From: an uncultured Woeseiaceae bacterium | GTDB lineage: Bacteria > Pseudomonadota > Gammaproteobacteria > Steroidobacterales > Woeseiaceae | Reading direction: 5' to 3' | Assembly (NCBI GenBank): GCA_964465665.1 | Contig: CAYXKM010000285.1 | Coordinates: 1,435-65,434 of the forward strand | DNA: 64,000 nt | Shown: in pieces, positions 687 to 8,601 of the stretch | Layout: every line of letters begins with the position of its first letter | Position numbering within the stretch: position 1 is the first letter of the stretch | Position numbers and translations under genes: made by a program | Notes under the pieces: model-generated | The model's input: the letters and a program-made list of their open reading frames with translations, nothing else | The model's database searches: none | Told to the model about the DNA's origin: nothing

Positions 687-1769
687 CTAGAAATGCTGCT
701 GGGCCGGTATGCGTATTGCCGGGTCCGAGAAACTCGTGTCTTCCGGGTGACCCTTGGCGGTATTGAATGCAATCGTCCGATTCGAGTTGTTGTACAAATT
801 GAATTCCAGGTCGACTCTGCCGGTGTGCATGTTCATGAACTGCCAGCCGGTCGCATCGCGTTCGTTGAAAGGATCCGCGCGGTTCATCGGTACCGTCAGG
901 ATCGGCATATGACTTTCGGCCAGTGCATAGCTTTCCGGATACGGCCACGGCCACGCCGTCGACATCACCGAAGTGAATGCAATGTTGCCGATCTGGTTGT
1001 ACTGGATCTGGTGTACATGGCCATAGATGACATTGACCTTGTCGAAAGGCCTTAGCATTGCCTGGATGTCGTCGGCTTCCTCGGTCCAGAAATTCCAGCC
1101 TTTGTAGATCTTCTGCAAAGGCGAGTGTGAAAAGACCACGATCGGCGTGTCCTTTGAAACCTTCGCGAGATCCTTTCGCAGCCATTCCATTTGCTTGGCA
1201 CCTATCATGAACGGCGAGCCGTTCGGATTGTCGAGGCCCGCCATCTCGTTCATGCGGCGCTCGTCCGATTCCCAGCGATCGAAGGTCCAGTCATCGTACG
1301 TAAGAATGCTGTTCAGGGTGATGAAGTGCACGCCCTTGTGGTCCCAGCTGTAGTAATGCTTGCCGTAGAGCTTGCTCCAGTACTCACCAAGGTCCAGGTA
1401 ATAGTCGTGCTCGCCCATGACCATGTACGTTTTGTAATTGAGCTTGGCCAGCATCTCTGCGCCGTGATCCAGTTCCGGCTTCGAACCGAGCTGTGCCAGG
1501 TCGCCACCGAAAACGACGAAATCGGGTTTCGGTTCGAGCAGGTTCGCCTCGGCCACAGCGCGTATCAGGCCGCGGTCCCAGTTCCGGACAAATTGGTTGC
1601 CCTTGATCTGCTGAATGTGCGAATCGGAAATATAGGCGAAGGTGAAATCGGGACCGCCTTCCTTGCCGTAGGACAGCCGTATCAGGCTGACCGGCAACAT
1701 TCCGGCGATCACGCCGGACATCGTGGTTCGCAAGAAATCCCTTCGGCTATTCACTTTAATGCTTTTCAT
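687..1769 (-). CDS. Tat-exported metallophosphoesterase (calcineurin-like)
   Basis: ORF 687..1769. Twin-arginine leader NSRRDFLRT. Metallophosphoesterase motifs DSH, GGD, GEHD (variant of GNH[DE]), SHSP and GHVH. Confidence 0.85.
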   Translation of the reverse strand: MKSIKVNSRRDFLRTTMSGVIAGMLPVSLIRLSYGKEGGPDFTFAYISDSHIQQIKGNQFVRNWDRGLIRAVAEANLLEPKPDFVVFGGDLAQLGSKPELDHGAEMLAKLNYKTYMVMGEHDYYLDLGEYWSKLYGKHYYSWDHKGVHFITLNSILTYDDWTFDRWESDERRMNEMAGLDNPNGSPFMIGAKQMEWLRKDLAKVSKDTPIVVFSHSPLQKIYKGWNFWTEEADDIQAMLRPFDKVNVIYGHVHQIQYNQIGNIAFTSVMSTAWPWPYPESYALAESHMPILTVPMNRADPFNERDATGWQFMNMHTGRVDLEFNLYNNSNRTIAFNTAKGHPEDTSFSDPAIRIPAQQHF

Positions 1770-2911
1770 TGTGTATCTCCCGATACGCCAGAGGCTGCAA
1801 CCGACTGAGCCTTCAGTGACTGGAACTGCGGGCTGGTAAGCGTTTCCATGAATGCGACCAGGTCGTCGATCTCCTGTTCTGTAAGATTCAACGGCCGAAT
1901 CCCGCCACTCAGGAACGGATTGACCGGATCTTCAGGCTTGGTCACACCGCCATTGTTGTAGTGTTCGACCACTTCGCGCAGCGTCTTCACGCTGCCGTCG
2001 TGCATGTACGGTGCGGTCACGTCGATGTTGCGCAACGTTGATGTCTTGAAGGAACCCATGGAGCTGAACTGGTCGTCGACCGCAAACCGTCCGAGATGCG
2101 ACGTATCCGCATCCGAGAGCACGGCGACATCGACATCCATTCCGGCATTCTTTGCTACCTGGAAGGCCCGTGCCAGTTCCGGTACCTTGTCCTGGATGTT
2201 GTTGATGCCGATGCCGATGTTGTGAAACAGGTGATCAGTAAAAAGGGCGAAGTCCTGTTCGATCGCGTGGCACGACACACATCGTCCGTTGCCAAGAAAT
2301 GTGGCGAATCCGCGTTTGGCCTGCTCGCTGATCGCATCCTGCTCGCCGCCGAAGTACCAGCGATCAAACGGTGAGTCACCGGAGATCTGCGTGCGTTCGA
2401 AGGCAGCGATGGCCCTGGTCACTTCTTTCATCGTGATCGATGTGGCGTCCACACCGAACACATCGCTGAACGACTTTATGTATGCCCGGTCACTTCGAAC
2501 GATTGTCAGCAGCGCATCATCGTTCGACATCGCCATTTCCACGGGATTCACGAACGGGTGCATGGACTGGTCCTCGAGGTCCGGCGAACGGCCGTCCCAG
2601 AACTGGGTCTTGTTGAACGCGGCATTGACGATTGTCGGCGCATTGCGCGTGCCGGTCAGTTTGCTTATGCCTTCGGAAACACTCAACGGACTGTCCGTAA
2701 ACGCCTTCTCTGCCACGTGGCAGGTTGCGCAACTGACCTCGCCTGTGGCACTGAAGCGCACATCGTTGAACAGCCGGCTGCCCAGTGCAATTTTCTCCGG
2801 TGTCTGCGGGTTGTCTGCCGGTATCGGGACTTCCGGCAATCCGAGTGGCGCATCCGCCAGTAGCGGGGCCGCCAGGATCAGGATGCCCACGGCGATCAAT
2901 GGTTTATTCAC
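1766..2911 (-). CDS. Di-haem cytochrome c peroxidase / MauG family protein
   Basis: ORF 1766..3109 trimmed to the GTG at 2911, which is preceded by GGAGGA. Signal peptide NKPLIAVGILILAAPLLADA. Two haem motifs, CATCH and CVSCH, and a CCP-like C-terminus (APYMHDGS). Its stop overlaps the downstream start (ATGA). Confidence 0.9.
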   Translation of the reverse strand: MNKPLIAVGILILAAPLLADAPLGLPEVPIPADNPQTPEKIALGSRLFNDVRFSATGEVSCATCHVAEKAFTDSPLSVSEGISKLTGTRNAPTIVNAAFNKTQFWDGRSPDLEDQSMHPFVNPVEMAMSNDDALLTIVRSDRAYIKSFSDVFGVDATSITMKEVTRAIAAFERTQISGDSPFDRWYFGGEQDAISEQAKRGFATFLGNGRCVSCHAIEQDFALFTDHLFHNIGIGINNIQDKVPELARAFQVAKNAGMDVDVAVLSDADTSHLGRFAVDDQFSSMGSFKTSTLRNIDVTAPYMHDGSVKTLREVVEHYNNGGVTKPEDPVNPFLSGGIRPLNLTEQEIDDLVAFMETLTSPQFQSLKAQSVAASGVSGDTQ

Positions 2912-3402
2912 TTTGTTTCCTCCCCGCTTTCTGCGGCGCGGTTGCTGGTCAATACATCTGTGGATTCCTGCGGCGAAGGTACGCCGCAGTTGAAAACTGC
3001 TGCGCCATCGAACCAGACAACCTGGTCGGCCTGCAGAACCTGCACGTCGCTGTAGCCGCGTTCCCGCAGGCTGAGTTGCAGCGCCGTCGCCCGTTTGCCG
3101 GTTCTGCAATAAACCACGATGGGCTCATCCAGGTCCGCCGGCAGGTCGGTGTTCGAATCGATGGGAGAATCGTGCGGCACGTTGATCGCACCGCTGATGT
3201 GCGACGCCTGAAATTCCTCGGCGGATCGGGCATCGAGCAAGGTGAATGTGCTGTTGTCAGCCAGGAAGGACAGCAACAGCTTCTGCGGGACAGGTGTACG
3301 GTTTGCGGTGATTTCATCGGCCAGCGCATCGACGCGCCCTGCAAGCAACGCGGGCAGCATAATCGTCACAGCAAAGAGCAGACGTCTAATTGCCGGTTTC
3401 AC
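2908..3402 (-). CDS. Periplasmic rhodanese-domain sulfurtransferase
   Basis: ORF 2908..3402 with a GTG start. Signal peptide and active-site loop CRTGKR. 4-nt overlap (GTGA) with the CCP gene. Confidence 0.85.
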   Translation of the reverse strand: MKPAIRRLLFAVTIMLPALLAGRVDALADEITANRTPVPQKLLLSFLADNSTFTLLDARSAEEFQASHISGAINVPHDSPIDSNTDLPADLDEPIVVYCRTGKRATALQLSLRERGYSDVQVLQADQVVWFDGAAVFNCGVPSPQESTDVLTSNRAAESGEETK

Positions 3403-3623: not shown

Positions 3624-4331
3624 ATGCAAGCGAGCAGAAAGTCCCGAATCCTTCTTGGCGTGATCGCCACGGCCGCCATGGCGATGTCTGCCATCGCCAA
3701 GGAAGAAATTCCGGAGACGACACCGGAAGGTCTGGTGCTGATGAAGGACAGCAAGGCAAGGCTTGTTTATGCCAGGCCCGGCGCAACGCTGGACCAGTAC
3801 ACCAAGGTTGCGTTGCTCGATTGCTACGTCGCTTTCAAGAAGAACTGGGAAAGGGATTACAACCGCGATGCGTCAACGCTTAGCGGCCGCGTAACGACCG
3901 AGGACATGGAAAAAATCAAGAAACTCGTCGCTGATGAGTTCAGGACAATATTCACCGAGGAACTGCAGGAAAAGGGTGGCTACCCGCTGGTCGACGTGGC
4001 TGGCGAAGATGTACTGGTTGTAAGGCCGGCAATCCTCAATCTCGACGTCACCGCCCCCGACATCAATAACAGCGCGGGCAATCGCCAGTTCGTCACATCG
4101 GCAGGCGAGATGACCCTGTTTATGGAGCTGTTCGATTCATCGACCGGCGAAATCATTGCGCGGATCGTCGATCCGCAGGCAGCCGACAGGGGCGGTTTCG
4201 CGACGATGGCCAACAGTGTCACCAACAAGGCGGAAGCAGACCGGATCCTGCGTAAATGGGCTGTCGCGCTGCGCGGCCATCTCGGTGACCTGGACAAGGC
4301 AACGACGGCCGAGGGGGAGGCCGCGAACTAA
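3624..4331 (+). CDS. Secreted protein, DUF3313-like (family assignment from memory)
   Basis: ORF 3624..4331. GGAGG lies upstream of the ATG. Signal peptide ends AIA-KEE. Confidence 0.6.
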   Translation: MQASRKSRILLGVIATAAMAMSAIAKEEIPETTPEGLVLMKDSKARLVYARPGATLDQYTKVALLDCYVAFKKNWERDYNRDASTLSGRVTTEDMEKIKKLVADEFRTIFTEELQEKGGYPLVDVAGEDVLVVRPAILNLDVTAPDINNSAGNRQFVTSAGEMTLFMELFDSSTGEIIARIVDPQAADRGGFATMANSVTNKAEADRILRKWAVALRGHLGDLDKATTAEGEAAN

Positions 4332-4445
4332 TTTGGTGACAGTGACCTTAATTGACTCCGGCTGGTACTAGATCCCGAGACTTCTTTACCTTTATATGAA
4401 CAAGGGTAACTGTCACCAAATTAATAAGGTCACTGTCACTGTCAC
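4331..4445. repeat. Small intergenic element with terminal inverted repeats, copy 2, plus an extra half-site
   Basis: ATTTGGTGACAGTGACC at 4331-4347, GGGTAACTGTCACCA at 4404-4418, and GGTCACTGTCACTGTCAC at 4428-4445. Confidence 0.8.
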
Positions 4446-5359
4446 TTAACTTGGCGCAGGCACCAGTACTGCACTTTCTGCGCCTCGAGAAACGCCTCGG
4501 CGTTCGCGCCGTTCAGCATCGCCAGCGTCGTGAGCATGCCGGCCTGGGTGCAGGTGTCGGCGGCCACGGTAACGGATTCGGGCGCGTTCTCGACCGGCCA
4601 GCCGGTGAGGGGATTCAGGATGTGGCTGTAGCGAACGCCGTTCTTCAGCAGGAATCGGCGCGAATCGCCGCTGGTCGCCAGCGCACCCGATCGCAATGAA
4701 ATCAGTTTCTGCACGGAGCCTTCCCGGCACGGCGCTTCGATACCGACCTGCCAGCCGGCAGGTTGCCTGACCTCGCCGGTTACGACGAGATCGCCACCGA
4801 AGTTGATCAGGCAGGGGCGGGACGTCAGTTGCGTGACCAGGCCGGCCGCCCGGTCCACCGCATACTCCTTGCCGATCCCTCCGAGGTCAATCTGCATGCC
4901 GCGCTGCATGCGTATTCGAGGACGCGCCCAGGACACGCGACGCCAGCCGATGGCAACGAGGACCTGAGCGATTCTGTCTGCGGTCGGTATCCGGTCACTG
5001 CCATCGAATACCCAGACTTTTCGCAGCGCACCCGACGTGATGTCGAACCGGTGTTCACTCAGTTCGTAAAGTGTTACAGCGAAGTCCAGCAGGTTGGCAG
5101 TTTCGTCATCCACTGTGACCGCCTGCCCGTCGCTTTCGTTAATTCTCGCGACGATGTTGCCGGGTCGATACCGGCTGAACTTGTCTTCGATGCGCCAGGC
5201 TTCGGCGGCGACCCGCTGCAACAAGGCATTGGCGAGCGCCTCGTCGTCGGTGTCGATGAGGAGTTCGCACGGACTGCCCATGGCATGGAACAGCCCCTGG
5301 TAGTAGCCTGCTGCGGCACGCCGCAATTCCGGATTGCGGCAAATGCCGGCCTGCTTCAC
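4442..5359 (-). CDS. apbE: FAD:protein FMN transferase (ApbE family)
   Basis: ORF 4442..5428. ApbE-like blocks: MGSPCELLI, FDITSGAL, GGIGKEYAVD and ATSGDSRRF..YSHILNP. Start uncertain. I chose the GTG at 5359 because it does not overlap the upstream gene. ATG alternatives are at 5407 and 5428. Confidence 0.85.
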   Translation of the reverse strand: MKQAGICRNPELRRAAAGYYQGLFHAMGSPCELLIDTDDEALANALLQRVAAEAWRIEDKFSRYRPGNIVARINESDGQAVTVDDETANLLDFAVTLYELSEHRFDITSGALRKVWVFDGSDRIPTADRIAQVLVAIGWRRVSWARPRIRMQRGMQIDLGGIGKEYAVDRAAGLVTQLTSRPCLINFGGDLVVTGEVRQPAGWQVGIEAPCREGSVQKLISLRSGALATSGDSRRFLLKNGVRYSHILNPLTGWPVENAPESVTVAADTCTQAGMLTTLAMLNGANAEAFLEAQKVQYWCLRQVK

Positions 5360-5372
5360 AGGTCGTCTGTCC

Positions 5373-6701
5373 TCAGAAGCGATAGCTGAATTGCGCAATA
5401 ATGGCATCGAGGTCGGGATACAGTTCACGGCCGGCCTGGTTGCCGATAATCTGGTCTGACGGAGCGGAGCCGTCCTGCATATAGTATTCGAGCCGCACGC
5501 TCATCTCGTTGTCCGATCGTGTCTTCCAGCCGTACTTCATACCGACGGTAATCGCATCGAATTCGCCGAGTCGATAGTCGGACGAGGCAAATTCGAGCGG
5601 CGGTGCACCATCGACGAGACTGATGCGGTAGAAATCCGCTGCAGTTTGCGTATACCAGCGTACATGCGGTTCGAGGTATCGCCGGTCACCGAAAGGCCAG
5701 CGATAGCGAGCTTCCAGTGTATGCGAGTCGATCTCCCAATCGTCCGTCATGTAACGGTACGACAGATCGAGCACGTTGCCGCTCATGTAGTACTTTGCCT
5801 GGCCGTAGATGCTGTGCTTTGTTCGGTCGTCGGGGCGGCTCTCGAAGCGGTACTCGTGCAACGGTCCGGATTCGCCGGGCGGGAGCGTGCGAACCACCGG
5901 ATCACCGGTGGTGCCATCTACGAGGCTCAGGAATTTATACGGATCGTTGAGATAACCGCTGGACTGGCTCAGCGAGTAATTGAACTGGAACAGGAGATCC
6001 CGGCTGACGACCTGGGTCAGGCCGAGCACCAGGTCGGCGACGTCCTTGTCCTGGTCACCGATCCGGTTCGAAAGGTCGCCGACGTCCAGCATGGCCGACA
6101 GCGGCACCGGTGCACCCCCTTCCGGTTCAAGGCTGTCCTGCGCGTAGGCAAGTCCGAGCGACAGCGTCGTGTTTCGCTTGTTGAAATCGCGTGACAGTCC
6201 CACATTGGCTCCGAGATGGACGTAGTCGTATTCCTTGGAGGCGCTCAATCCGGCATTGATCGAATACAGCCGTGCAAACGGCTGTTGCCAGCCGGCCGTG
6301 AGGGCTACGCGCGTATCGAGAAAGCTGTCGTCGAGCGGGATCTCGTTGGCCGCCGTGGTGTAGGTGGCTTTGCCGGAGGGCCTTGTGAATGTCTGGGGTC
6401 CGTCGAACGGCAACGCACCGCTCGGTGTTGCGCCTGTCAGTGAGTCGGCAACAAGTCCGAGTGTCAGGATCCGATCGTCGACAAACGTGCGGCGCACGAG
6501 CAGGTTCAGGCTCAAGTCCTGCACACGGTCGTCGCTCTCGCCATAGTAAAGTAGCGCCGTATTGAAATCCCAGCCGGGTTCTTCCTGCGCTTGCACCGGT
6601 GAAACTGTCGATGTTCCCAGCAATGAGCAGGCTGCTGTCGCGAGCGACGCGGCGATGGAACGAGTGCTTTGTTTCGACATTCGATCTGGCTTCGTAGTCA
6701 T
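5373..6701 (-). CDS. DUF3570-like predicted outer-membrane beta-barrel protein
   Basis: ORF 5373..6737 trimmed to the ATG at 6701 (GGAG upstream). Signal peptide ends VQA-QEE. Alternating beta-strand-like sequence with a C-terminal FSYRF. Contains DSLTGAT. The DUF assignment is from memory of the conserved DUF4266/DUF3570/ApbE/thioredoxin neighbourhood. Confidence 0.7.
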   Translation of the reverse strand: MTTKPDRMSKQSTRSIAASLATAACSLLGTSTVSPVQAQEEPGWDFNTALLYYGESDDRVQDLSLNLLVRRTFVDDRILTLGLVADSLTGATPSGALPFDGPQTFTRPSGKATYTTAANEIPLDDSFLDTRVALTAGWQQPFARLYSINAGLSASKEYDYVHLGANVGLSRDFNKRNTTLSLGLAYAQDSLEPEGGAPVPLSAMLDVGDLSNRIGDQDKDVADLVLGLTQVVSRDLLFQFNYSLSQSSGYLNDPYKFLSLVDGTTGDPVVRTLPPGESGPLHEYRFESRPDDRTKHSIYGQAKYYMSGNVLDLSYRYMTDDWEIDSHTLEARYRWPFGDRRYLEPHVRWYTQTAADFYRISLVDGAPPLEFASSDYRLGEFDAITVGMKYGWKTRSDNEMSVRLEYYMQDGSAPSDQIIGNQAGRELYPDLDAIIAQFSYRF

Positions 6702-6708
6702 CTCCGCC

Positions 6709-6942
6709 TCAATTGCAGCCGCAGCCGCCGCCGCCAAAGCCGCGTCCGCCGCTCGAGGCTTCCTTGCTGAAATAAATGTGGTCGTCGATGCCGGCTTCTA
6801 CGGCATCCGTTGTCAGCTGCATCTCTTCTTTTGCCAAAACGTCACGTTCCCACGGTTCGACGCCCATGGACGTACATCCGCTTGCCGTTGCAGCAAGCAG
6901 CAGACATAGCGCCGCCGCTTTCAATGCTCTGAAATTCAACAT
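6709..6942 (-). CDS. DUF4266-like small lipoprotein with Gly/Cys tail
   Basis: ORF 6709..6942 (77 aa). Lipobox LAATASGC. C-terminus GGRGFGGGGCGCN. Confidence 0.7.
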   Translation of the reverse strand: MLNFRALKAAALCLLLAATASGCTSMGVEPWERDVLAKEEMQLTTDAVEAGIDDHIYFSKEASSGGRGFGGGGCGCN

Positions 6943-6946
6943 GCAG

Positions 6947-7438
6947 TCAATCCTCTCCTGATGTCAGTACCTGCCTGATTTTTTCCTCGTACTCATCAGA
7001 CTTTTTGACCTGAAAACCCATGTGGGTGGCAACGACGGCGCCGTCGCGACCAATGATGTAGGAACTCGGCATCGCTTCGACTTCGAAATACCGTGCCAGG
7101 TCGCCGCCGGGATCGGCAGCGATGGTGAACTGCGCCGGATAGTCCCGCAGAAACGCGTCAGCATCGCCGGGGTCGGCGTCCATGTTCACGCCGATGATGA
7201 CCAGGCCCTGCGCGGAATACTTCTCCTGCATGCGATTCATCCACGGAAAAGAACGACGGCAGGGCACGCACCACGAGGCCCAGAAATCGAGCAGCACCAC
7301 CTGGCCGCGATAGTCGTCGAGGTTCAGCGAGGATTCGGCAGCGGGACTCGAGCTGATCGCCAGGGAACTGGCGATCAGCATCAGGAAAGCGGCGAGGGCC
7401 GGGCCGAAATTTCGAACGCGAGACACGTCCATATGCAA
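6947..7438 (-). CDS. TlpA/ResA-family periplasmic thiol:disulfide oxidoreductase
   Basis: ORF 6947..7438. Signal/anchor segment, WCVPC active site and thioredoxin fold blocks. Confidence 0.9.
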   Translation of the reverse strand: MHMDVSRVRNFGPALAAFLMLIASSLAISSSPAAESSLNLDDYRGQVVLLDFWASWCVPCRRSFPWMNRMQEKYSAQGLVIIGVNMDADPGDADAFLRDYPAQFTIAADPGGDLARYFEVEAMPSSYIIGRDGAVVATHMGFQVKKSDEYEEKIRQVLTSGED

Positions 7439-7591
7439 CAGGTGACCTTTATCAACGGATTTTCCAGGGCGTTCGACAGCGTGCTCTGCTGCCAGCCTGC
7501 CTCAATAGACGTTGGTCAATGAAAAATCGGTCGCTGGCCCACTGCCGCATGGCCTGCCGCTCGCCGAGCGGTCAGGCCGAAGTATTGAGGA

Positions 7592-8290
7592 CTACCAGCG
7601 GAAACCAATCGTCAGCGGGATGAACTCTATGTTCTCCCGTTCGAACTGAATCTGGTGATACTTCGCTTCGATGAAAATCTGCCCGTTGTAGGTGTTGAAA
7701 CTGTAGCCTGCACCGAGATTCCAGCCGAATTCGTCCGCAGAGGTACTGCCAACGACAAACGTGCCGGGCCCGACGCCGCCCGGATAGCACCACCAGAACC
7801 ACGGATCGCAGACCGGCGGATAGTAGACGAGCCCGTCCTGCGTAACTTCGCCGCCGACGTGGTACCAGCCGACGCCGCCGGTCAGGTACAAGCCGCTGCC
7901 GTTGCTGCCGCTCAAGCTCCAGATGCCGTTCAACCCCAGTTGCCAGTAATCGACGCCGCCTCCGGAAATGTTGCCGTCGTTGTTCGGATCCTGGTCGATG
8001 GCGTCATTGATGGCGCTCAGTGCCGAACTCGACAGATCGAAGTCGGTGTAGGCACCCTCGATCGAGAGTCCGATCGGCCAGTCCGAAGGCCAGTACAGTG
8101 CACCGCCGCTGAAGGTCCAGTCATCGTCAAGGACGTCGCCTGTGTCGCCCTGCGGGAAAGCCCAGCCGGCACCTATGTGCCCGAACCAGTCTCTGGACTG
8201 GTCATCGGGCCGACCCCCGGCCCACGCAGGTGCGATTGCCAGCGACGTGGCGGCGAGTACGGCACAAGCTTTTGAAATTGTTCGCGACAT
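7592..8290 (-). CDS. Small outer-membrane beta-barrel protein
   Basis: ORF 7592..8527 trimmed to the ATG at 8290 (GGAGGA 10 nt upstream). Signal peptide MSRTISKACAVLAATSLAIAPAWA. Gly/aromatic-rich sequence with a C-terminal GFRW. Confidence 0.75.
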   Translation of the reverse strand: MSRTISKACAVLAATSLAIAPAWAGGRPDDQSRDWFGHIGAGWAFPQGDTGDVLDDDWTFSGGALYWPSDWPIGLSIEGAYTDFDLSSSALSAINDAIDQDPNNDGNISGGGVDYWQLGLNGIWSLSGSNGSGLYLTGGVGWYHVGGEVTQDGLVYYPPVCDPWFWWCYPGGVGPGTFVVGSTSADEFGWNLGAGYSFNTYNGQIFIEAKYHQIQFERENIEFIPLTIGFRW

Positions 8291-8601
8291 AAACGAGAAG
8301 TCCTCCGACTTGATGAAATTATTATTCATTCTGGCAGATCCGGTGAGTACTGACACTTGTAGAATCGAAACCCCCGCGTAAGTTCCACACGGGGCGTAAC
8401 GCAGGCTGGCAGTCCGCCACCAGTGTATATCGATTGCCGCGATGAGTGGCGCGAAGCCTGAGGGAAGCCGATAGCTCATTGCGCTGTTACAAATGCTTAC
8501 CGTTTGGCCAATACCGCGCGCCGACAAATCCGTACACTATGATCCAGTGTCGATGACGCCGGATCGATGTGCAAAACCTGAATTACCCAGCAGATCCATA
8601 A

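What the first reader, a model, noticed from the sequence alone, without database searches (positions are those of the whole stretch)
6426..6446. ApbE-type flavinylation motif DSLTGAT inside the predicted outer-membrane DUF3570-like protein
Reverse-strand codons gac tca ctg aca ggc gca aca (6446-6426) encode D-S-L-T-G-A-T. The site is about 50 residues after the predicted signal cleavage site. This matches the D-x-x-[S/T]-G-A-[T/S] context of the FMN-accepting threonine in NqrC and RnfG (established knowledge). The ApbE gene lies immediately downstream. As far as I know, a covalently flavinylated beta-barrel or outer-membrane protein would be unusual.
Basis: partly seen in the sequence, partly recalled or inferred. 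Interest (0 to 1): 0.7.

Follow-up and report, generated by a model that had tools for sequence, protein, structure and literature searches.

The report
Known flavin-attachment site in DUF3570 barrel
The DSLTGAT peptide is real and almost certainly marks where the neighbouring ApbE enzyme attaches a flavin, but a 2021 paper already showed this modification for the DUF3570 family; what remains open is that the protein looks like an outer-membrane barrel and its ApbE has no export signal.

Summary
Observation confirmed. Codons 6446-6426 (- strand) encode D79-S-L-T-G-A-T85 of a 435-aa protein that matches Pfam DUF3570 over its full length (E 8.6e-134). ApbE lies immediately downstream; DUF4266 and a TlpA-like thioredoxin lie upstream.

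The motif is not chance. It appears in 0.6% of shuffles of this protein. The acceptor Ser/Thr sits in the same alignment column in 131/132 and 117/117 diverse homologues.

Méheust et al. 2021 (eLife, PMC8238504) showed experimentally that ApbE flavinylates DUF3570, and they described this four-gene cluster.

Three points go beyond that paper:
- This protein has only one canonical site. The paper reports two.
- An AlphaFold2 model (pLDDT 83.6) is a roughly 16-stranded barrel whose best structural matches are all outer-membrane barrels. The motif sits at the base of an unusually conserved long loop. The paper never mentions a barrel.
- The cluster ApbE has no signal peptide in about 70 orthologous loci and 4 distant ones. 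Where the flavin is attached is therefore unexplained.

Verdict: an ordinary member of a known system, of low interest as filed. The leaderless ApbE and the barrel placement are worth a follow-up.

The parts
6426..6446 (-). D79-S-L-T-G-A-T85, the ApbE-type flavinylation motif (family site 1)
   Evidence: conserved column
6426..6428 (-). Codon aca for Thr85, the predicted FMN acceptor (phosphoester link)
   Evidence: Ser/Thr at this column in 131/132 and 117/117 homologues. The acceptor role is inferred from NqrC/RnfG and from the DUF3570 mutants in PMC8238504
6411..6422 (-). S87-G-A-L90, a conserved half-motif 5 residues downstream (x-G-A-x). It has no hydroxyl acceptor in this protein
   Evidence: x-G-A-x in 124/132 homologues. 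S/T at the last position in about 25% of one set and 17/117 of the other
5373..6680 (-). DUF3570 gene (435 aa; an alternative ATG at 6701 would add 7 residues). Predicted roughly 16-stranded outer-membrane beta-barrel ending in ...FSYRF
   Evidence: Pfam PF12094, E 8.6e-134, full length. AF2 pLDDT 83.6, pTM 0.79. Foldseek top hits are all OM barrels
6588..6680 (-). Predicted Sec signal peptide of DUF3570 (residues 1-31, VQA|QEE)
   Evidence: Sequence inspection. AF2 pLDDT <50 for residues 1-33
6318..6434 (-). Loop L2 (residues 83-121) between strands 3 and 4. It starts inside the motif, is structured, and is unusually conserved
   Evidence: DSSP and pLDDT 82-90. Mean conservation 0.60 with 8 positions >=90%
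4442..5359 (-). ApbE, FAD:protein FMN transferase, leaderless. Probable GTG start at 5359, with GAGGA 10 nt upstream; the stop-to-stop ORF reaches 5428
   Evidence: Pfam PF02424, E 6e-68. PDB 1vrm E 3.5e-38 and 6nxi E 1.1e-26, catalytic blocks present. No signal peptide
6709..6942 (-). DUF4266 small lipoprotein (lipobox ASGC) with a Gly-rich C-terminal tail ending in CGCN
   Evidence: Pfam PF14086, E 1.3e-22. GGCGCN C-terminus in 78/79 loci
6715..6723 (-). Codons for the C-terminal C74-G-C76 (CxC) of DUF4266
   Evidence: CxC noted as a possible redox-cycling motif in PMC8238504
6947..7438 (-). TlpA/ResA-like exported thioredoxin, first gene of the four-gene unit
   Evidence: Pfam AhpC-TSA, Redoxin and Thioredoxin_8. 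NCBIfam ResA/TlpA subfamily hits
7259..7270 (-). Codons for the C57-V-P-C60 active-site motif of the thioredoxin
   Evidence: WASWCxPC in about 74/79 loci

Best explanation
The DSLTGAT peptide is the family-conserved FMN attachment site of a DUF3570 protein. The co-encoded ApbE (FAD:protein FMN transferase) is expected to transfer the FMN moiety of FAD onto the hydroxyl of Thr85 as a phosphoester. This was shown experimentally for a homologue and is inferred here. The protein is a Sec-exported, roughly 16-stranded outer-membrane beta-barrel (predicted). The site sits where strand 3 runs into a long, structured, highly conserved loop, on the side opposite the N and C termini. The gene belongs to a conserved four-gene unit: TlpA-like thioredoxin (CxxC), DUF4266 lipoprotein (C-terminal CxC), DUF3570 and ApbE. 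The most likely function is a thiol-to-flavin (or flavin-to-thiol) electron relay in the cell envelope. Reducing equivalents would pass between the thioredoxin, the CxC tail of DUF4266 and the barrel-held flavin. This relay is inferred, and the terminal substrate is unknown. The cluster ApbE has no export signal, and ApbE accepts short linear motifs. Attachment therefore most plausibly occurs on the unfolded chain before barrel assembly, possibly in the cytoplasm (inferred).
For: Identity: PF12094 at 446.9 bits against a cutoff of 25, full length. Site conservation: 117/120 close homologues; 109/132 canonical with the acceptor kept in 131/132; 116/117 canonical in an independent set. Not chance: 0.58% of shuffles. 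Experimental precedent: C. luteolum DUF3570 was flavinylated by its cognate ApbE, and Ser-to-Ala at the motif sites abolished it; the ApbE+DUF3570+thioredoxin-like+DUF4266 cluster was described in 227+316 clusters (PMC8238504). Cluster conservation: same order and strand in about 70/80 Woeseiaceae/Steroidobacteraceae loci and in distant loci L082, L083, L085, L087 and L088. ApbE integrity: DLGGIxK, FGGD, ATSGD and SHILxPxTG blocks aligned to 1vrm and 6nxi. Barrel: AF2 pLDDT 83.6; short turns alternate with long loops; C-terminal Phe; Foldseek hits OccAB1, OmpG, OprD, AlgE, BcsC and FadL at E 1e-8 to 1e-6. Loop conservation: L2, L5 and L7 carry 22 of the 50 positions that are >=90% conserved. 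Modification of an unfolded chain is plausible: a 7-residue flavin-tag suffices (PMC12052999), and C. luteolum DUF3570 was flavinylated although it was recovered from the insoluble pellet.
Against: There is no direct evidence for this protein; flavinylation rests on homology. The paper reports two conserved sites, but this protein has only one [ST]GA[ST]. I could not map the published second site because the C. luteolum sequence was unreachable. The ApbE is leaderless while the substrate is exported. The enzyme and the mature substrate are thus predicted to be in different compartments, which the standard periplasmic model does not explain. No DsbD/CcdA electron donor is present in the 64-kb window. 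Foldseek TM-scores are modest (0.3-0.46).
Confidence: 0.78

Rival explanations
1. The motif is conserved for structural reasons (a strand-to-loop transition in the barrel) and is not flavinylated in this clade. The cluster ApbE would be cytoplasmic and never meet the exported protein, and it would serve another, cytosolic, target.
For: ApbE is leaderless in every locus examined. The known cytosolic ApbEs act on cytosolic substrates (PMC12052999). The Ala before the acceptor tolerates S/G/P in about 17% of homologues.
Against: The hydroxyl acceptor is kept in 131/132 and 117/117 homologues. apbE is coupled to or overlaps the DUF3570 stop codon in about 70 loci. A homologue was shown to be flavinylated at these motifs. 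The only representative without the acceptor also lacks apbE nearby.
Confidence: 0.1
2. The protein is flavinylated but is a soluble or peripheral periplasmic protein, not an integral outer-membrane barrel. This is the implicit picture in the published model.
For: The eLife paper treats DUF3570 simply as an extracytosolic substrate and never mentions a barrel. Foldseek TM-scores are only 0.3-0.46.
Against: The AF2 model is all-beta, with 16 long strands, alternating short turns and long loops, a signal peptide and a C-terminal Phe. All 50 listed Foldseek hits are OM barrels or barrel domains. The recombinant homologue went to the insoluble pellet, as OMPs made without export do.
Confidence: 0.08
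3. The peptide is a chance match to a short degenerate motif.
For: The 4-residue core occurs in 6.5% of shuffles of this protein and 25 times in the six-frame translation of the window. A second full match in the window is clearly chance.
Against: The full motif occurs in 0.58% of shuffles. The alignment column is the same across more than 360 homologues down to 35% identity. apbE is adjacent.
Confidence: 0.01

Closest known systems
DUF3570 (PF12094) ApbE substrates in the thioredoxin-like/DUF4266/DUF3570/ApbE ('DsbD system') clusters of Méheust et al. 2021, eLife 10:e66878
   Same: Same Pfam family over the full length, the same [S/T]GA[S/T] flavinylation motif, and the same four-gene cluster. 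It belongs to the subset of 316 clusters that are not co-localised with DsbD.
   Different: Only one canonical site, against two reported for the family and two needed to abolish labelling in C. luteolum. The barrel fold, loop placement and leaderless ApbE are not discussed in the paper.
NqrC / RnfG FMN_bind domains (PF04205), the classical ApbE substrates
   Same: The same D-x-x-[S/T]-G-A-[T/S] sequence context, with FMN on the last Thr/Ser. The same modifying enzyme family.
   Different: There is no FMN_bind domain here. The fold is a membrane beta-barrel, not a small alpha/beta periplasmic domain. The classical substrates are modified by exported lipoprotein ApbEs.
Cytosolic ApbE of Klebsiella pneumoniae (flavinylates a soluble cytoplasmic fumarate reductase; cited in PMC12052999)
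   Same: An ApbE without a signal peptide.
   Different: Its substrate is cytoplasmic. Here the adjacent substrate carries a Sec signal peptide and an outer-membrane fold.
Outer-membrane barrels with an inserted redox partner, such as MtrB/MtrA porin-cytochrome conduits (comparison from my own knowledge)
   Same: Possibly a barrel that houses a redox cofactor and receives a periplasmic partner. That partner would be the OM-targeted DUF4266 lipoprotein with its flexible Cys-bearing tail.
   Different: No haem and no sequence relationship. Here the cofactor would be a flavin bonded covalently to the barrel itself. This is purely a functional analogy and was not tested.

Membership tests
DUF3570 (PF12094) flavinylation substrates | Pfam PF12094 match above the gathering score, full length | tested here: met
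   446.9 bits against a cutoff of 25; profile positions 2-427 of 427
DUF3570 (PF12094) flavinylation substrates | [S/T]GA[S/T] motif with a Ser/Thr acceptor at the family-conserved column | tested here: met
   T82-G-A-T85. The column is canonical in 117/120, 109/132 and 116/117 homologues
DUF3570 (PF12094) flavinylation substrates | A second [S/T]GA[S/T] motif (the paper reports two conserved motifs) | tested here: not met
   The protein has only one [ST]GA[ST]. The +5 half-motif reads SGAL, and 102-105 reads SGKA. Most sampled homologues also have a single site (96/132 and 98/119). The position of the paper's second site could not be mapped
DUF3570 (PF12094) flavinylation substrates | apbE in the same gene cluster | tested here: met
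   ApbE lies immediately downstream on the same strand. This is conserved in about 70/80 loci
DUF3570 (PF12094) flavinylation substrates | Thioredoxin-like and DUF4266 (C-terminal CxC) genes in the cluster | tested here: met
DUF3570 (PF12094) flavinylation substrates | DsbD-family (PF02683) membrane protein co-localised (optional; 227 of 543 published clusters) | tested here: not met
   None of the multi-TM ORFs in the 64-kb window is DsbD/CcdA
DUF3570 (PF12094) flavinylation substrates | Covalently bound FMN on the protein | not testable with these tools
   Needs MS or in-gel UV fluorescence
FMN_bind domain proteins (NqrC/RnfG, PF04205) | FMN_bind domain | tested here: not met
   The Pfam scan at E <= 0.01 returns only DUF3570
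ApbE FAD:protein FMN transferase (PF02424), neighbouring gene | Pfam match and conserved catalytic blocks, including the His of SHIxxP | tested here: met
   E 6e-68. Alignments to 1vrm and 6nxi; ATSGD in 68/72 and GGD in 68/72 orthologues
ApbE FAD:protein FMN transferase (PF02424), neighbouring gene | N-terminal lipoprotein or secretion signal, typical of most bacterial ApbEs | tested here: not met
   No hydrophobic N-terminal segment in any reading of the ORF, in about 70 orthologous loci, or in 4 distant loci. Assessed by hydropathy and inspection, not SignalP
Outer-membrane beta-barrel proteins (fold class) | Signal peptide, an even number of long antiparallel strands with alternating short turns and long loops, a C-terminal aromatic residue, and structural similarity to solved OM barrels | tested here: met
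   16 long strands, turns of 5 residues or fewer on the terminal side, C-terminal F435. Foldseek E 1e-8 to 1e-6 to Occ/OprD, OmpG, AlgE, BcsC and FadL. No sequence-level PDB relative, so it is not a member of any solved porin family

The most novel reading that the evidence does not exclude
A leaderless ApbE would attach FMN in the cytoplasm to the unfolded DUF3570 precursor. The flavin-bearing chain would then pass through Sec and be assembled by BAM. The flavin would end up inside, or at the outer mouth of, an outer-membrane barrel, held by the conserved loops L2, L5 and L7. There it would exchange electrons with the Gly-rich CxC tail of the OM lipoprotein DUF4266, which is in turn reduced by the TlpA-like thioredoxin. 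Together these would form a haem-free thiol/flavin conduit across the outer membrane.
Probability: 0.2. Interest if true: 0.8.

Novelty: already known. Interest (0 to 1): 0.3.

Why it matters
As filed, the finding rediscovers a published result: ApbE flavinylates DUF3570. It adds only another ortholog from a Woeseiaceae-type sediment bacterium. The function of the DUF3570 system is still unknown, and this analysis sharpens two questions. First, the substrate looks like an integral outer-membrane barrel, with the flavin site in an unusually conserved loop on the side away from the periplasmic termini. That would make it a rare cofactor-bearing outer-membrane barrel. Second, its dedicated ApbE has no export signal in any cluster sampled. 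The place and timing of flavin attachment therefore do not fit the standard periplasmic model. Both questions can be tested directly with simple co-expression, fractionation and mass-spectrometry experiments.

Tried and rejected
- **Mapping the published second site.** The C. luteolum sequence (ABB24424.1) could not be reached. The DUF3570 sheet of Supplementary file 1 was cut when stored. Supplements 2 and 3 and the main text give no residue numbers. A homologue search seeded with the two-site member P0223 returned only proteobacterial-type sequences.
- **The search for related loci with the diverse alignment A2.** It failed because no stretch was conserved enough. The closer alignment A3 returned only Woeseiaceae and Steroidobacteraceae loci. 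The test of motif against apbE adjacency therefore could not be run on a balanced set and rests on a few individual look-ups.
- **The second full-motif hit at 6589-6609.** It is out of frame and is absent from 0/80... that is, present in 0 of 80 orthologous loci, so I rejected it as chance.
- **HILNP instead of HILDP in ApbE.** This looked like a possible active-site change. I rejected it because the position varies between D and N among orthologues.
- **Readthrough or frameshift fusion of DUF3570 to ApbE.** I rejected this because the two ORFs are in the same frame in some loci and in different frames in others.
- **Promoter and terminator scan of 4200-7800.** Uninformative; hits were at or below shuffle expectation.
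- **DsbD/CcdA in the window.** None found.
- **Profile search of PDB sequences with the DUF3570 alignment.** No relatives found.

Full report
**Observation.** On the - strand, 6446-6426 reads gac tca ctg aca ggc gca aca. It is in frame with ORF 5373-6737(-). Taking the ATG at 6680 as the start, which matches the N-termini of homologues, the peptide is D79-S-L-T-G-A-T85 of a 435-aa protein.

**Is it more than chance?**
- The six-frame translation of the window (127,996 residues) has 25 [ST]GA[ST] cores but only two full D-x-x-[ST]-G-A-[ST] matches.
- The second match (6589-6609, - strand) is in a different frame, over the signal-peptide codons. None of 80 orthologous loci has such a match, so it is chance.
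- Only 0.58% of composition-preserving shuffles of this protein contain the full motif.
- The motif also sits in a conserved alignment column, as described below.

**What the protein and its neighbours are.**
- The protein matches Pfam DUF3570 (PF12094) end to end (E 8.6e-134).
- Downstream lies ApbE (PF02424, E 6e-68). Its ORF abuts the DUF3570 stop codon.
- Upstream lies a 77-aa DUF4266 (PF14086) with a lipobox (ASGC) and a Gly-rich tail ending in CGCN.
- Before that lies a TlpA/ResA-like thioredoxin with WASWCVPC.
- The order thioredoxin-DUF4266-DUF3570-ApbE, all on one strand, recurs in about 70 of 80 loci from Woeseiaceae and Steroidobacteraceae genomes. The remaining loci are mostly truncated contigs. 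The best locus is 89% identical, so the window most likely comes from a Woeseiaceae-type gammaproteobacterium.
- The same cluster is found around much more distant DUF3570 genes (L082/L083, L085, L087, L088).
- DUF4266 ends in GGCGCN in 78 of 79 loci, and the thioredoxin keeps WASWCxPC in about 74 of 79.

**Prior knowledge.** Méheust, Huang, Rivera-Lugo, Banfield and Light (eLife 2021, PMC8238504) examined orphan apbE genes and found DUF3570 next to them. They noted conserved [S/T]GA[S/T] motifs in 228 ApbE-associated DUF3570 proteins. They showed that Chlorobium luteolum DUF3570 becomes flavinylated when co-expressed with its cognate ApbE, and that Ser-to-Ala changes at both predicted sites were needed to abolish labelling. 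They also described the ApbE + DUF3570 + thioredoxin-like + DUF4266 cluster: 227 clusters with DsbD and 316 without. They proposed a hybrid thioredoxin/flavin electron-transfer system of unknown function. In the searchable library, only this paper deals with DUF3570 function. The one other paper I read that mentions it notes only the gene neighbourhood. The 2025 ApbE review does not mention DUF3570.

**Conservation of the site.**
- Among 120 close homologues (66-95% identity), 117 have D-x-[LM]-[ST]-G-A-[ST].
- Among 132 full-length representatives at 35-60% identity, taken from an exhaustive search, 109 are canonical. In the rest, the Ala is usually replaced by S, G or P.
- The acceptor Ser/Thr is retained in 131 of those 132.
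- In an independent set seeded from the distant member P0223, 116 of 117 are canonical and all 117 keep the acceptor.
- The one representative that lost the acceptor (P0142, TGAA) lies between a response regulator and a histidine kinase, with no apbE, DUF4266 or thioredoxin on its 2.8-kb contig.
- Two members with degenerate cores but intact acceptors (P0230 CGGS, P0210 SGPS) still sit in full clusters.
- One canonical member (P0270) has DUF4266 but no apbE within 5 kb.
- These few cases fit a link between the acceptor and ApbE, but they are anecdotes and not a statistical test.

**One site, not two.** The window protein has a single [ST]GA[ST]. A conserved half-motif x-G-A-x lies five residues downstream, in 124 of 132 homologues. 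Its last residue is Ser/Thr in only about a quarter of them, and in 17 of 117 of the second set. Here it reads SGAL, with no hydroxyl. A few homologues have a second motif near residues 99-102, where this protein has PSGKA. I could not obtain the C. luteolum sequence to place the published second site. Most family members sampled are single-site (96/132 and 98/119).

**Fold and placement.**
- An AlphaFold2 model built from 30 homologues is confident (mean pLDDT 83.6, pTM 0.79). It is all-beta with 16 long strands.
- Connections on the side of the N and C termini are 2-5 residues long. Most of those on the other side are long: residues 83-121, 185-209, 242-284, 346-372 and 406-423. The chain ends in Phe.
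- All 50 listed Foldseek matches to the PDB are outer-membrane barrels or barrel domains (OccAB1, OmpG, OprD, AlgE, BcsC, FadL; E 1e-8 to 1e-6). TM-scores are only 0.3-0.46, and no PDB sequence relative exists. This supports an outer-membrane barrel as a fold class, not membership of a solved family.
- By strand parity, the motif lies at the end of strand 3 and the start of long loop L2, on the face opposite the periplasmic termini.
- Unlike in ordinary porins, the short periplasmic turns are the least conserved elements (0.25-0.56). Loops L2, L5 and L7 carry 22 of the 50 positions that are at least 90% conserved, many of them charged. This suggests the loops form a structured functional pocket, plausibly the flavin site.
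- The eLife paper never uses the word 'barrel', and mentions 'outer membrane' only in connection with TonB receptors. It does report that the recombinant protein went to the insoluble pellet.

**An unexplained point: the ApbE is leaderless.**
- In the window, the ApbE ORF cannot extend beyond 5428. Its probable start is the GTG at 5359, preceded by GAGGA. The residues before the conserved F-x-A-M-G-S-P-C-E domain start are hydrophilic.
- The same holds in about 70 orthologous loci: only about 20-30 non-hydrophobic residues lie between the DUF3570 stop and the ApbE domain. It also holds in four distant clusters.
- The enzyme looks functional. It aligns over the whole domain with T. maritima TM1553 (1vrm, E 3.5e-38) and V. 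cholerae ApbE (6nxi, E 1.1e-26). The DLGGIxK, FGGD, ATSGD and SHILxPxTG blocks are conserved among orthologues.
- According to the 2025 review, most ApbEs are exported lipoproteins, and the known cytosolic ApbEs serve cytosolic substrates (PMC12052999).
- A leaderless ApbE dedicated to a Sec-exported outer-membrane protein is therefore not explained by the standard model.
- ApbE accepts a 7-residue linear tag. The C. luteolum protein was labelled although it was recovered from the insoluble pellet. The simplest reconciliation is modification of the unfolded chain before barrel assembly, possibly before export.
- From my own knowledge, SecYEG tolerates sizeable side-chain adducts on translocating chains. 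This was not checked here.
- Alternatives are a second, exported ApbE elsewhere in the genome, or non-classical export. Neither could be tested.

**Mechanism.**
- Most likely (0.78 for the flavinylation claim): Thr85 carries FMN installed by the adjacent ApbE.
- The functional reading is inferred at much lower confidence. It proposes a thiol/flavin relay among the TlpA-like thioredoxin, the CxC tail of the outer-membrane-targeted DUF4266 lipoprotein and the barrel-held flavin.
- No DsbD/CcdA is present in the window, so the inner-membrane electron source is encoded elsewhere or is different.

**Verdict.** However, the phenomenon is already known and this locus is an ordinary member of the family. 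Residual interest lies in the barrel and loop placement of the site and in the consistently leaderless ApbE. Neither is discussed in the literature I could search.

Noticed in passing
window 4442-5428 (-), and loci L001-L080, L082, L085, L087, L088: The ApbE of every DUF3570 cluster sampled lacks a signal peptide or lipobox, although its presumed substrate is Sec-exported. Most characterised bacterial ApbEs are exported lipoproteins.
   Followed up: partly
window 6589-6609 (-): A second full match to the flavinylation motif (DSFTGAS) lies in a different reading frame, over the signal-peptide codons of DUF3570. It is present in 0 of 80 orthologous loci, so it is chance.
   Followed up: yes
protein P0140 (DUF3570 representative, 489 aa), residues ~198-221: An insertion carries three tandem NTVTGASG motifs, while the usual site 1 is degenerate (SGPS). 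This may be a multi-flavinylated DUF3570 variant.
   Followed up: no
window residues 102-103 of DUF3570 (about 6372-6377, -), and homologues such as P0142, P0224, P0237, P0238: Many homologues carry Gly/Asp/Glu-rich or Ser/Thr-rich insertions of 10-60 residues directly after the conserved P-S-G in loop L2. The window protein has none.
   Followed up: no
window 1766-2890 (-); loci L011, L012, L022 and others: A MauG/MbnH-like di-haem peroxidase lies about 1.4 kb downstream of apbE in 15 of 61 loci. It is also nearby in the window, next to a rhodanese (2908-3402), a metallophosphoesterase (687-1769) and a SoxA/TsdA-type cytochrome c (283-690). This may be a loosely linked periplasmic redox neighbourhood.
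   Followed up: partly
window 7592-8527 (-): A 311-aa ORF has no Pfam or NCBIfam hit. It has a signal-peptide-like N-terminus and ends in ...GFRW, so it is probably another outer-membrane barrel. It lies just upstream of the cluster but is not a conserved neighbour.
   Followed up: partly
window 5373-6680 (-), per-element conservation: The conservation pattern is the inverse of typical porins. The periplasmic turns are the most variable elements, and long loops L2, L5 and L7 hold 22 of the 50 positions that are at least 90% conserved, many of them charged.
   Followed up: partly
locus L088 4002-4215 (+): An uncalled DUF4266 gene (ending GGCGCN) sits between the thioredoxin and DUF3570 genes. 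This shows that gene callers can miss this small ORF.
   Followed up: yes
locus L084 (around P0270): A DUF4266-DUF3570 pair occurs without thioredoxin or apbE within 5 kb. It lies next to an FG-GAP protein and a 326-aa protein with a faint PccH cytochrome-like hit. DUF4266-DUF3570 may be the core pair of the system.
   Followed up: no
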